DNA from: a phage
Strand: one strand, 5' to 3'
Assembly (NCBI GenBank): GCA_012490745.1
Contig: GCA_012490745.1_3925.1
Length of the DNA: 64,000 nt
Below are positions 37,527 to 39,492 of the stretch, in pieces. A program made the position numbers and the translations under genes. The notes beneath the pieces were generated by a model that searched no databases, was not told where the DNA came from, and was given only the letters and a program-made list of their open reading frames with translations. The first letter of the stretch is position 1. Each line of letters starts with the position of its first letter.

Positions 37527-37991
37527 TTACTTTGGGTATACACTGTCAAGATAAATGTCAGCTTCCATTCTACGTCTGTTTTTCAGGCCGTTTGAAGTGA
37601 CCTTCTGACCTTTGACTGTAACCTTGTTCCACCACTGCATAGCTTCTGCACAACCTACCTTATTACCAGCGTTGTGGCGCTTGATAAATGTGGAATCCTG
37701 CATAGCTGTGATACCGATGTTGTATGTTTCACTTACAAGTGCATCAAACTCGTTCTGAGAAGTTGGAACCTTGATGGCTTTATTCACTGCTGCAACGAAT
37801 TTTTCAACATCTGCAAGAAGATACTGTTCAGCTTGTTCAGCAGTAATTTTCATACCCATCTTAACAGGCTTTCCGTCAATACGGATTGTCCCATACCCGA
37901 TTGTTGGGATTCCGGCAGAGTCTTCGTAAGCCTCTAACTTCAGACCTTCGAAGAACTTAATAGCATCTAAACCTTTTCTTGAGAGTTGCAT
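37527..37991 (-). CDS. T4-type lysozyme (glycoside hydrolase family 24), probable endolysin
   Basis: 154 aa; N-terminus FFEGLKLEAYEDSAGIPTIGYG matches the catalytic Glu / Asp and TIG-G block layout of T4 lysozyme. Confidence 0.8.
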   Translation of the reverse strand: MQLSRKGLDAIKFFEGLKLEAYEDSAGIPTIGYGTIRIDGKPVKMGMKITAEQAEQYLLADVEKFVAAVNKAIKVPTSQNEFDALVSETYNIGITAMQDSTFIKRHNAGNKVGCAEAMQWWNKVTVKGQKVTSNGLKNRRRMEADIYLDSVYPK

Positions 37992-39124
37992 TACGCCTCC
38001 CCTGCTGGGTTAACTGTAACTGTTGCCGCATTAGATGTTACAGAGCCACCTGCACCAGTAACTACACAGGTGTAGCTTCCTGAATCAGCAGCGGTTGCAC
38101 CTTCTTTGGTGTAAGTTGCAGTAGTTGCATCGAGGATGTCTTCCTCACCTTTCTTCCACTGGTAACCTGTTGCACCTGTTGCTACAACGTTAAGTGTTAA
38201 TGTCTCACCTTCAGTGATTTCCTGATTGGTTGGCTGTTGAGTGATTACCGGAAGTGCTTTAACAGTAACTGTTGCAGGGCTAGAAGTAACAGAACCACCT
38301 GCACCTGTTACAACGCAAGTGTATGAACCTGCATCTGCTGGCAGAGCACCAGACTTGCTATAGGTAGCATTTGTCGCTGAAGGAATGTCAGAGCCATCTT
38401 TCTTCCATTGGTAACCAGTTGCACCAGTTGCAGTAACTGCTAAGTTGATGTTTCCACCTTCATTAATAGTCTGGTTAGAAGGTTGCTTGGTAATCACAGG
38501 TAGTGCGTTCACAGTCACTGTTGCTGCATCTGAGGTAACACTTGTTCCACCCTCTCCAGATACAACACAAGTGTATGAACCAGCGTCAGAAGGTGCTACT
38601 GACTGTTTTGTGTAAGTTGCAGAATTGGCACTAGGGATATTCTCACCATCCTTCTTCCACTGATATCCAGTGGCATTAGTTGCTAGAATGCTTAGAGTAA
38701 GTGTGCCACCATCATTGACTGTTTGACCTGTTGGTTGCTGAGTAATTGCTGGTGGCTTAATAGCATCCTTCAACTTAGCATTCAACATTGAGAACGGCTT
38801 AACTCTTGCCAACCATTCACAGTAAATTGTGTCAACATCTTTACCATTGATGATTGCATACTGCAAATCCATGAAGAAATCAGCAGTTCTCATCTGTGCA
38901 CCAACACTGTAAAGCAATTCATCACTAAATGGAACTTTGTAGTCTGGTTTGTAGTCAAACTTCTCAACTTCTGCAATATCAGCTTCAGGCCAATACGAGC
39001 TATAGGTAAGTGGTAAAATAGCCTCTTGATATGTTCTAAAATCATATCTCTTACCAGCCTTTACGTTTGCAATGAAGCCCTTCACAAACTCTTTGAAGTC
39101 TGGGTAAGTCTTTGCTTTAATCAT
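37991..39124 (-). CDS. protein with three tandem Ig-like repeats and an N-terminal domain paralogous to the next gene
   Basis: 377 aa; three repeats of about 84 aa, each with ATGATGYQWKKDG...DAGSYTCVV...ATVTV; N-terminal about 125 aa is similar to ORF 39121-39492. Confidence 0.6.
   Translation of the reverse strand: MIKAKTYPDFKEFVKGFIANVKAGKRYDFRTYQEAILPLTYSSYWPEADIAEVEKFDYKPDYKVPFSDELLYSVGAQMRTADFFMDLQYAIINGKDVDTIYCEWLARVKPFSMLNAKLKDAIKPPAITQQPTGQTVNDGGTLTLSILATNATGYQWKKDGENIPSANSATYTKQSVAPSDAGSYTCVVSGEGGTSVTSDAATVTVNALPVITKQPSNQTINEGGNINLAVTATGATGYQWKKDGSDIPSATNATYSKSGALPADAGSYTCVVTGAGGSVTSSPATVTVKALPVITQQPTNQEITEGETLTLNVVATGATGYQWKKGEEDILDATTATYTKEGATAADSGSYTCVVTGAGGSVTSNAATVTVNPAGEA
37994..38760. 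repeat. three tandem DNA repeats of about 250 bp (encoding the Ig-like modules)
   Basis: Recurrent stretches such as GGTAACC(T/A)GTTGCACC(T/A)GTTGC at about 251-bp period. Confidence 0.6.
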
Positions 39125-39492
39125 TTCTTTTCAGCCTCTAAATGTGCGTTTAGTCTAAAATAACCTTTGTGATTCGGAGATACATCACCAACGACAATAC
39201 CTTTAACCTTATAACCTTTACCAATTACATACTGGATATCCATAAGGAATCTTCCAAGACCAACAATATGGAACATTGGGTATAATAGATTCTCAGAGTC
39301 TGGAATATTGATTTCAGGTTTGTAGGTACGCTGTTCGCTTGTTGGTGTAATATCTTCTTCAGGCCATTTACTGAGTCTCCATGTCAAAGGTGTTGGGATA
39401 ACATCATTAAGGTTGTACCTTTCACCATTTTGCACGGAATTGATATAGGATTGTAGGAAGCAATAAAAGTCTTTTGCACTCTTAGCTTTCAT
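39121..39492 (-). CDS. hypothetical protein, paralog of the N-terminal domain of the Ig-repeat protein
   Basis: 123 aa; shared blocks (FLMDIQY vs FFMDLQY, RYNLNDV vs RYDFRTY). Confidence 0.45.
   Translation of the reverse strand: MKAKSAKDFYCFLQSYINSVQNGERYNLNDVIPTPLTWRLSKWPEEDITPTSEQRTYKPEINIPDSENLLYPMFHIVGLGRFLMDIQYVIGKGYKVKGIVVGDVSPNHKGYFRLNAHLEAEKK

What the first reader, a model, noticed from the sequence alone, without database searches (positions are those of the whole stretch)
37527..39492. Lysozyme adjacent to a protein with three tandem Ig-like repeats and a duplicated N-terminal domain
The T4-type lysozyme gene is followed on the same strand by a 377-aa protein whose C-terminal two-thirds is three near-identical Ig-like modules, also visible as 250-bp tandem DNA repeats. 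Its N-terminal domain is paralogous to the next small ORF. Tandem Ig-like modules in phages usually decorate virions or bind carbohydrate; placement beside the lysozyme and far from the structural module is unusual.
Basis: seen in the sequence. Interest (0 to 1): 0.45.

Follow-up and report, generated by a model that had tools for sequence, protein, structure and literature searches.

The report
Known Hoc-like capsid decoration gene cassette
The Ig-repeat protein next to the lysozyme is the already published "Hex-Dec/gp20" head-decoration protein of Felix O1-like phages, so the finding is ordinary; the one part not described in the four papers I read is a small neighbouring gene that copies only its capsid-anchoring domain.

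Summary
The window is a Felixounavirus genome (wV8/AYO145A-like, 93-98% nt identity). All three genes lie on the minus strand, in the order 123-aa ORF (39492..39121), 377-aa Ig protein (39124..37991), GH24 lysozyme (37991..37527). Start and stop codons overlap, and a hairpin or terminator sits on each side. The lysozyme is the last gene of the unit, not the first. The three Ig modules are only 63-70% identical, not near-identical.

The 377-aa protein is not mysterious. It matches PDB 9NCF chain S (Bas63 Hex-Dec, E 6e-293) and 9C2D chain S (Sf14 gp20). Both are cryo-EM-resolved Hoc-like decoration proteins whose N-terminal ~118 aa plug into the centres of particular capsid hexamers. Virion presence (mass spectrometry in Felix O1 and Sf14), variation of 1-4 Ig copies, and the location outside the structural module are all published.

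The 123-aa ORF is a paralog of the capsid-binding domain alone. It is under purifying selection (dN/dS 0.07-0.18), transcribed late in Felix O1, absent from the published virion protein lists, and not mentioned in the four papers I read. Its function is unknown.

Verdict: already known, low interest.

The parts
39121..39492 (-). 123-aa ORF (wV8 gp42 / Felix O1 gp37 / Sf14 gp21 / bas63_0125; phrog_4463). It is a paralog of the Hex-Dec capsid-binding domain (CapBD) with no Ig domains. Function unknown.
   Evidence: BLASTP to the 377-aa protein: 38% identity, E 5e-17. phmmer to 9NCF_S and 9C2D_S: E 1e-11 and 5e-11. phrog_4463: E 2e-79. dN/dS 0.07-0.18. The AF2 model is poor (pLDDT 59), but its only significant PDB fold hits are 9c2d_S and 9ncf_S.
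38756..39124 (-). [quoted passage not shown]
   Evidence: 97% identical to the Bas63 CapBD and 88% to the Sf14 CapBD. Aligns 1-372 to 9NCF_S, E 5.7e-293. Keeps R79 and R107, which the Sf14 paper reports as contacts to MCP D221.
38504..38755 (-). Ig-like (I-set) module 1, aa 124-207.
   Evidence: Pfam Ig_3, Ig_2 and I-set. Boundaries taken from the P[AV]IT.QP motif.
38255..38503 (-). Ig-like (I-set) module 2, aa 208-290.
38006..38254 (-). Ig-like (I-set) module 3, aa 291-373, followed by a 4-residue tail and the stop codon (37991-38005).
37527..37991 (-). GH24 (T4/P22-type) soluble endolysin, 154 aa. Its start codon overlaps the Hex-Dec stop (TAATG).
   Evidence: PF00959 E 9e-41; phrog_7 endolysin E 8e-58. 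E15, D24 and T30 have the T4-lysozyme spacing of E11, D20 and T26 (sequence). No hydrophobic N-terminal segment.
37500..37517 (-). Intrinsic terminator closing the three-gene unit (AGGCTCCTTCGGGAGCCT + TTTTTATTTT).
   Evidence: Annotated at the same place in wV8 and AYO145A.
39517..39530 (-). GC-rich hairpin (GGGGCTTATGCCCC) between the gp43-like gene and the paralog. It is annotated as a rho-independent terminator in wV8 and AYO145A and forms the upstream boundary of the unit.
   Evidence: Sequence; annotations. The consensus scan did not call it because the T tract is weak.
53875..54981 (+). Major capsid protein, the binding partner of the CapBD.
   Evidence: 365/368 identical to Bas63 MCP (9NCF_A, E 5e-248) and E 6e-234 to Sf14 gp34. 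D221 is conserved.

Best explanation
The 377-aa protein is the Felixounavirus hexamer-decoration protein, called Hex-Dec in Bas63, gp20 in Sf14 and gp36 in Felix O1.

How it works:
- Its N-terminal ~120-residue, largely helical capsid-binding domain (CapBD) inserts as a monomer into the centre of a subset of MCP hexamers on the T=9 head. These are the pentamer-proximal / facet-edge hexamers. Binding includes salt bridges from Arg79 and Arg107 to Asp221 of the MCP.
- The three I-set Ig modules project outward as a flexible fibre, functionally like T4 Hoc but with the domain order reversed and an unrelated anchor.
- What the Ig fibre binds is inferred, not shown. Adhesion to mucus, cell surfaces or other particles is suggested by analogy with Hoc.

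Gene organisation:
- The gene is the middle one of a compact three-gene unit (CapBD-only paralog, Hex-Dec, GH24 endolysin) bounded by hairpins and with overlapping start and stop codons.
- RT-PCR in Felix O1 puts ORF36 and ORF37 (Hex-Dec and the paralog) in the late class together with morphogenesis genes. A head-decoration gene placed next to the lysin is therefore a late-function grouping, not a sign of a lysis role.

Copy number:
- The number of Ig modules changes by in-register homologous recombination between the diverged repeats, at the conserved GYQWKKDG core.

The upstream 123-aa ORF:
- It is an old duplicate of the CapBD alone. It is maintained by purifying selection but can be lost, and it is not reported in virions.
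- My best guess, held at low confidence, is a non-structural late protein that still acts on MCP hexamers or on Hex-Dec loading.
For: Identity:
- phmmer to 9NCF_S E 5.7e-293 over residues 1-372, and to 9C2D_S E 2.5e-167.
- CapBD 97% identical to Bas63 and 88% to Sf14.
- The cognate MCP in the window is 365/368 identical to Bas63 MCP, with D221 present. R79 and R107 are present.

Published structure and virion data:
- Sf14 gp20 was detected by mass spectrometry, and its N-terminal 118 aa bind the centres of quasi-3-fold hexamers through R79 and R107 to D221 (PMC11821841).
- Bas63 Hex-Dec CapBD binds facet-edge hexamers, is encoded more than 10 kb outside the structural module, and the genus shows 1-4 Ig domains (PMC12609058).
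- Felix O1 gp36 was found in CsCl-purified virions at 44% coverage. ORFs 36 and 37 are maximally expressed at 60 min and ORF35 (lysin) at 25 min (PMC3185647).

Operon anatomy: and annotations.

Recombination origin of copy-number change: the first Ig module of REP11 (2 Ig) and of CECAV_041 (1 Ig) is an Ig1-N/Ig2-C chimera joined at GYQWKKDG, which coincides with the best-conserved DNA core, D3.

Paralog. It is present in 233 of 253 Ounavirinae phage records, including Bas63 and Sf14.
Against: - No experiment has been done on this particular phage. Everything rests on orthology, though at 88-97% identity in the anchor and 99% in the MCP.
- The Ig domains were not resolved in either cryo-EM map, and no ligand has been shown for this family.
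- In Felix O1 RT-PCR the lysin peaked earlier (25 min) than ORFs 36 and 37 (60 min), so simple co-transcription of all three genes is not established.
- I found no promoter. The sigma-70-like hits are at chance level, and the motif upstream of the paralog is not enriched in the window.
- GenBank records label the protein 'tail protein'.
Confidence: 0.92

Rival explanations
1. The 377-aa protein is a tail protein (major tail subunit or tail-associated), as most GenBank records annotate it.
For: Records are labelled 'tail protein', 'putative tail protein' or 'HK97 major tail subunit'. PHROG hits include major tail protein families phrog_158 and phrog_853, and phrog_3995 itself is labelled 'tail protein'.
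Against: The tail-family hits cover only the Ig region: residues 126-207 for phrog_158 and 96-207 for phrog_853. This reflects the Ig domains that many tail proteins carry. Two independent cryo-EM structures place the ortholog on capsid hexamers. The true tail sheath, tube and tape-measure genes lie at 56.9-61.7 kb.
Confidence: 0.02
2. The Ig protein, the paralog, or both are lysis accessories of the adjacent endolysin, for example a cell-wall or envelope-binding partner or a holin/spanin substitute. That would explain why they are conserved next to the lysozyme.
For: The order CapBD gene then lysozyme is conserved even in distant metagenomic lineages. Stop and start codons overlap. No holin lies next to the lysin in Felix O1-like phages (PMC3185647).
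Against: The protein is a stoichiometric capsid component in orthologs. Neither protein has a hydrophobic or transmembrane segment (sequences). The lysozyme is a complete stand-alone GH24 domain. Some phages carry a truncated Hex-Dec (Z31) or a pseudogenised paralog and were still isolated as lytic phages.
Confidence: 0.04
3. The 123-aa paralog is itself a third capsid decoration protein: a bare plug for the hexamers that Hex-Dec does not occupy.
For: It shares the CapBD core, with 31 invariant columns. It is transcribed late in Felix O1. It is under purifying selection. The facet-centre (true 3-fold) hexamers are left empty by Hex-Dec.
Against: No density was seen on the other hexamers in Sf14 or Bas63, and both phages encode the paralog. 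It is absent from the published virion protein lists of Felix O1 and Sf14, and by inference VpaE1, where the only additions to the Felix O1 set were gp54, gp58 and gp68. Arg79 is replaced by Gly in every paralog examined, and Arg107 by Asn or Gln in most. At least three phages carry a pseudogenised copy with the same 228-bp deletion.
Confidence: 0.1

Closest known systems
Bas63 Hex-Dec (PDB 9NCF chain S) and Sf14 gp20 (PDB 9C2D/9C3A chain S): hexamer-centre decoration proteins of Ounavirinae.
   Same: Orthologous over the full length: E 6e-293 and 3e-167, with the CapBD 97% and 88% identical. Same gene neighbourhood (paralog upstream, GH24 lysin downstream). Near-identical MCP partner with D221. 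R79 and R107 are kept.
   Different: Only the number of Ig modules differs: 3 here, 4 in Bas63, 3 in Sf14, 2 in Felix O1 by its 31.6-kDa mass, and 1 in others.
[quoted passage not shown]
   Same: A monomer at hexamer centres. A string of Ig-like domains projects from a small capsid-binding domain. It is dispensable, and the Ig number varies among relatives.
   Different: The domain order is reversed: the anchor is N-terminal here and C-terminal in Hoc. According to the Bas63 paper the anchor fold is larger, pseudo-C2 symmetric and topologically distinct. PHROG Hoc-like hits cover only the Ig region. Hex-Dec occupies only a subset of hexamers.
T5 pb10 and other N-terminal-anchor plus Ig decoration proteins.
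   Same: The architecture is an N-terminal capsid anchor with a C-terminal Ig-like display domain. PDB 5LXK and 8ZVI 'Decoration protein' match the Ig part at about E 9e-12.
   Different: No sequence similarity in the anchor domain. The CapBD profile finds only 12 representative clusters among 1.84 billion proteins.
T4/P22-type GH24 endolysins (Pfam PF00959).
   Same: The lysozyme ORF matches the full-length profile and has the Glu/Asp/Thr catalytic spacing.
   Different: Nothing notable. There is no SAR or signal-anchor sequence and no adjacent holin.

Membership tests
Ounavirinae Hex-Dec / Sf14 gp20 decoration protein | N-terminal ~120-aa capsid-binding domain homologous to the solved CapBD. 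| tested here: met
   phmmer to 9NCF_S over 1-372, E 5.7e-293, and to 9C2D_S, E 2.5e-167. 97% and 88% identity over residues 1-120.
Ounavirinae Hex-Dec / Sf14 gp20 decoration protein | Capsid-contact residues Arg79 and Arg107, with partner Asp221 in the cognate MCP (per PMC11821841). | tested here: met
   R79 and R107 are present. The window MCP has D221 and is 365/368 identical to Bas63 MCP.
Ounavirinae Hex-Dec / Sf14 gp20 decoration protein | C-terminal string of 1-4 I-set Ig-like domains. | tested here: met
   Three stretches each for Ig_3, Ig_2 and I-set.
Ounavirinae Hex-Dec / Sf14 gp20 decoration protein | Physical occupancy of facet-edge hexamer centres in the virion. | not testable with these tools
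   Shown for the orthologs by cryo-EM and mass spectrometry, not for this isolate.
T4 Hoc family | Hoc-type C-terminal capsid-binding domain following the N-terminal Ig domains. | tested here: not met
   The anchor is N-terminal. Hoc-like PHROG hits (phrog_2973, 4069, 3945) align only to residues 120-370, the Ig region. The Bas63 paper reports a distinct topology and reversed order. The protein works like Hoc but is not a Hoc homolog in its anchor.
Phage major tail protein with C-terminal Ig domain | Tail-tube or major-tail N-terminal domain. | tested here: not met
   phrog_158, 853 and 3575 hits are confined to Ig residues of about 96-207. The N-terminal 120 aa match only the CapBD.
GH24 phage lysozyme (PF00959) | Full-length profile match above the gathering score, and the catalytic Glu-(+9)-Asp-(+6)-Thr spacing. 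| tested here: met
   139.5 bits against a cutoff of 22.3, profile positions 2-125 of 125. E15, D24 and T30 in the sequence.
CapBD fold family (applied to the 123-aa paralog) | Sequence and fold homology to the solved CapBD. | tested here: met
   E 1e-11 to 9NCF_S. BLASTP E 5e-17. Foldseek finds only 9c2d_S and 9ncf_S as significant hits, TM about 0.6, from a low-confidence model.
CapBD fold family (applied to the 123-aa paralog) | Conservation of the capsid-contact arginines and presence in virions. | tested here: not met
   R79 is Gly in all paralogs. R107 is Asn or Gln, but Arg in the divergent P0098. The protein is not listed in the Felix O1, VpaE1 or Sf14 virion proteomes. Caveat: distant CapBD proteins that carry display domains (P0103, P0104) also lack R79, so this residue test is weak.

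The most novel reading that the evidence does not exclude
The conserved CapBD-only paralog (39121-39492; Sf14 gp21, bas63_0125, Felix O1 gp37) may be a previously unrecognised late, non-virion protein that acts on MCP hexamers. It could work as a transient plug or placeholder on procapsid hexamers, or as a competitor that restricts Hex-Dec to the facet-edge hexamers. If so, it would explain the so far unexplained site selectivity of Hex-Dec. Neither cryo-EM paper nor the two genome papers I read mention this gene.
Probability: 0.2. Interest if true: 0.4.

Novelty: already known. Interest (0 to 1): 0.15.

Why it matters
For the main finding it matters little. The protein's identity, its location in the virion, its Ig copy-number variation and its odd genomic position were published in 2010 and 2025.

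Two things have practical value. The widespread GenBank label 'tail protein' is wrong and should read 'capsid decoration protein (Hoc-like, Hex-Dec)'. Hex-Dec could also be considered as a display scaffold by analogy with Hoc and pb10, although no display experiment exists for this family.

The small residue of novelty is the CapBD-only paralog. It is a conserved, selected, late-transcribed gene with no assigned role. It might bear on why Hex-Dec decorates only some hexamers.

Tried and rejected
- Tandem Repeats Finder on 36-41 kb found no ~250-bp array. The repeats are too diverged and are visible only with the repeat finder and at the protein level.
- The sigma-70 promoter scan of 37-41.3 kb gave 9 hits against 10.2 expected, so no usable promoter call.
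- The motif CTATTTATAAG upstream of the paralog, tested as a possible shared late promoter, gave 4 hits against 2.4 expected, none upstream of structural genes. Rejected.
- The AF2 model of the paralog was poor (pLDDT 59). I used it only as a consistency check through Foldseek.
- The word-indexed homolog searches returned only close relatives. The exhaustive profile search was needed to reach distant CapBD proteins.
- One literature search, on Felixounavirus transcriptomics, was too unspecific and returned nothing useful. The wV8 proteome paper does not mention gp41 or gp42.
- The Rfam scan of 30-48.5 kb found only tRNAs and no structured RNA in the cassette.
- I considered and rejected a holin, spanin or cell-wall-binding role for the two non-lysin proteins. 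They have no hydrophobic segments, and the ortholog sits on the capsid.
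Full report
**What is in the sequence**

The region holds three tightly packed ORFs, all on the minus strand:
- a 123-aa ORF at 39492..39121
- a 377-aa ORF at 39124..37991
- a 154-aa ORF at 37991..37527

The first stop overlaps the second start (ATGA), and the second stop overlaps the third start (TAATG). A strong intrinsic terminator follows the last gene at 37517-37500. A GC-rich hairpin at 39530-39517 precedes the first gene. That hairpin is annotated as a rho-independent terminator in the near-identical phages wV8 and AYO145A.

Domain content:
- The 154-aa protein is a full-length GH24 phage lysozyme (PF00959, E 9e-41; phrog_7 endolysin, E 8e-58). 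Its Glu15/Asp24/Thr30 spacing matches T4 lysozyme, and it has no hydrophobic N-terminus.
- The 377-aa protein has three I-set/Ig_3 domains at residues 124-373.
- Its N-terminal ~120 residues are paralogous to the 123-aa ORF. Support comes from BLASTP (38% identity, E 5e-17), reciprocal PHROG cross-hits and 31 invariant alignment columns.

The Ig modules are clearly repeated, with period 249/252 bp, but they are only 63-70% identical in protein and 64-69% in DNA. Tandem Repeats Finder does not call them. 'Near-identical' is an overstatement.

**Where the window comes from**

The 2.2-kb region is 93-98% identical to more than 200 Felixounavirus genomes, including wV8, AYO145A, Andreotti and Felix O1 relatives. 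In the window the structural module starts at about 48.2 kb on the plus strand: TerL at 48163, portal at 49787, protease at 52106, MCP at 53875, sheath at 56907 and tape measure at 59435. A 25-tRNA cluster and a divergent intergenic region separate it from the cassette. The Ig-protein gene is thus about 9 kb from the module and on the other strand.

**What the 377-aa protein is**

It has solved orthologs. phmmer against PDB sequences gives 9NCF chain S ('Immunoglobulin-like domain protein', 460 aa) at E 5.7e-293 over residues 1-372. It gives 9C2D/9C3A chain S ('Tail protein | Putative tail protein', 372 aa) at E 2.5e-167.

9C2D is the capsid of Shigella phage Sf14 (PMC11821841). In that work:
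- gp20 is a 'Hoc-like' decoration protein detected in virions by mass spectrometry.
- It binds as a monomer to the centre of the pentamer-proximal (quasi-3-fold) hexamers of the T=9 head.
- Its N-terminal 118 aa form a largely helical bundle.
- Arg79 and Arg107 make salt bridges to Asp221 of three MCP subunits.
- The three Ig domains are predicted, not resolved.

9NCF is the capsid of Escherichia phage Bas63, a Felixounavirus (PMC12609058). In that work:
- The protein is named Hex-Dec, and its anchor CapBD is pseudo-C2 symmetric.
- It binds only facet-edge hexamers.
- The authors note that the gene lies more than 10 kb outside the structural module.
- They report that species of the genus carry one to four Ig domains behind a conserved CapBD.

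The window protein is 97% identical to Bas63 and 88% to Sf14 over the CapBD, and it keeps R79 and R107. The window's MCP is 365/368 identical to Bas63's and keeps D221.

Older data agree. Felix O1 gp36, the two-Ig ortholog of 31.6 kDa, was found in CsCl-purified virions at 44% coverage. The authors already remarked that this 'tail protein' gene sits far from the other morphogenesis genes (PMC3185647). The 'tail protein' annotation traces back to similarity limited to the Ig region: phrog_158 and phrog_853 hits cover only residues ~96-207.

**Why it sits beside the lysozyme**

RT-PCR in Felix O1 put ORFs 36 and 37 (Hex-Dec and the paralog) in the class maximally expressed at 60 min, together with portal, tail and fibre genes. 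The lysin, ORF35, peaked at 25 min. The grouping therefore involves later functions, but a single transcript is not proven. I found no convincing promoter.

The arrangement is ancient:
- An 87-kb metagenomic contig of a divergent ounavirus keeps the order gp43-like, paralog (P0098, 44-48% identical), Hex-Dec (P0099, 2 Ig), lysozyme.
- Still more distant lineages have a single CapBD gene. One is fused to Big_2 in P0100; another has a Lys/Ser-rich tail in P0104. In both the gene lies between a gp43-like gene and a GH24 lysozyme.

Adjacency to the lysozyme is therefore the ancestral state of this small family. An exhaustive profile search finds only 12 representative clusters in 1.84 billion proteins.

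**Copy-number change**

REP11 has 2 Ig modules and CECAV_041 has 1. In each, the first module is the N-terminal half of Ig1 joined to the C-terminal half of Ig2 at the conserved GYQWKKDG core. This coincides with the best-conserved DNA stretch of the repeat, family D3 at 82-87% identity. That pattern is what in-register unequal recombination would produce. It is an inference from sequences, and the variation itself is already published.

**The 123-aa paralog**

This is the only element not discussed in the four papers I searched by term. The word 'paralog' does not occur in either cryo-EM paper. Sf14 'gp21' does not occur in the main text, and in the supplement 'gp21' appears only as SPP1 gp21.

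What I could establish:
- *Distribution.* It is present in 233 of 253 Ounavirinae phage records. These include both structurally solved phages (bas63_0125 and Sf14 gp21).
- *Selection.* It evolves under purifying selection (dN/dS 0.07-0.18 where dS is not saturated). Its amino-acid sequence changes two to six times faster than the CapBD.
- *Fold.* The AF2 model is poor (pLDDT 59). Its only significant PDB fold matches are the two CapBD chains.
- *Contact residues.* Arg79 is Gly in every paralog, and Arg107 is Asn or Gln in most. This test is weak, because distant CapBD proteins that do carry display domains also lack R79.
- *Virion evidence.* It is absent from the published virion protein lists of Felix O1 and Sf14. 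By inference it is also absent from VpaE1, whose only additions to the Felix O1 set were gp54, gp58 and gp68. No density was seen on the hexamers that Hex-Dec leaves empty.
- *Dispensability.* Nineteen records gave only a CapBD-level match to the paralog query. The three I examined (REP11, Z31, CECAV_041) carry a decayed copy with the same 228-bp internal deletion (window 39420..39193). The gene is therefore dispensable for isolation as a lytic phage.

I conclude that it is a real, selected, late-expressed and probably non-structural CapBD-like protein of unknown role. A function on MCP hexamers or on Hex-Dec loading is my best guess, at low confidence.

**Verdict**

The 'unusual placement' is real, conserved and already noted in print. 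Novelty: already known. Interest is low, with a small residue in the undescribed CapBD-only paralog.

Noticed in passing
window 39121-39492 vs 38756-39124, compared with wV8 (L001): The paralog is 100% identical in amino acids to wV8 with pS 0.013. The immediately adjacent CapBD has pS 0.26 against wV8. This suggests a recombination breakpoint at about the paralog/Hex-Dec junction, i.e. mosaicism within the cassette.
   Followed up: partly
L004 (REP11) 2806-2997; L003 (Z31); L005 (CECAV_041); equivalent to window 39420..39193: Three Felixounavirus genomes share the same 228-bp internal deletion plus frame decay of the paralog gene. They also have a shortened or broken Hex-Dec (2 Ig, 1 Ig, or split into 134 + 55 aa). 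This is probably one lineage, so the correlation with Ig loss rests on a single event.
   Followed up: partly
L010 248-1724; L011 3444-4968; L012: Distant metagenomic relatives keep the order gp43-like, single CapBD gene, GH24 lysozyme. The CapBD is fused to Big_2 in one lineage and to a Lys/Ser-rich tail in another, instead of I-set Ig. The anchor therefore looks like a modular scaffold with swappable display domains.
   Followed up: partly
L013 1739-2164 (and L014 1678-2103): A 141-aa ORF just upstream of the CapBD+Ig protein P0102 begins MLKAKQYDSFEEL..., which resembles the CapBD/paralog N-terminus. The CapBD profile gave no HMM hit for it at E<=1. It may be an independent or very diverged paralog.
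   Followed up: no
window 40750-42618 (+) and 42784-47733 (+): A DUF5681 protein and a 471-aa 'RNA-binding protein' (phrog_850; its L011/L012 counterpart hits DUF2828) sit at the head of a 25-tRNA cluster. They are transcribed divergently from the cassette. A DUF5681 gene occupies the same position in L006 and L011, and the DUF2828 partner is also present in L011.
   Followed up: no
window 44391-44469 (+): Rfam calls a weak tRNA here (31.7 bits, gathering score 29) that ARAGORN does not report. Conversely, ARAGORN calls tRNA-Met at 43037-43113 and tRNA-Tyr at 43277-43364, and neither appears in the Rfam list.
   Followed up: no
window 37527-37991 and flanks: No holin or spanin candidate lies next to the endolysin; the neighbouring small ORFs have no annotated function. 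rIIA and rIIB homologs are at 16524-20079. The Felix O1 paper also noted the lack of a holin-lysin cassette.
   Followed up: no
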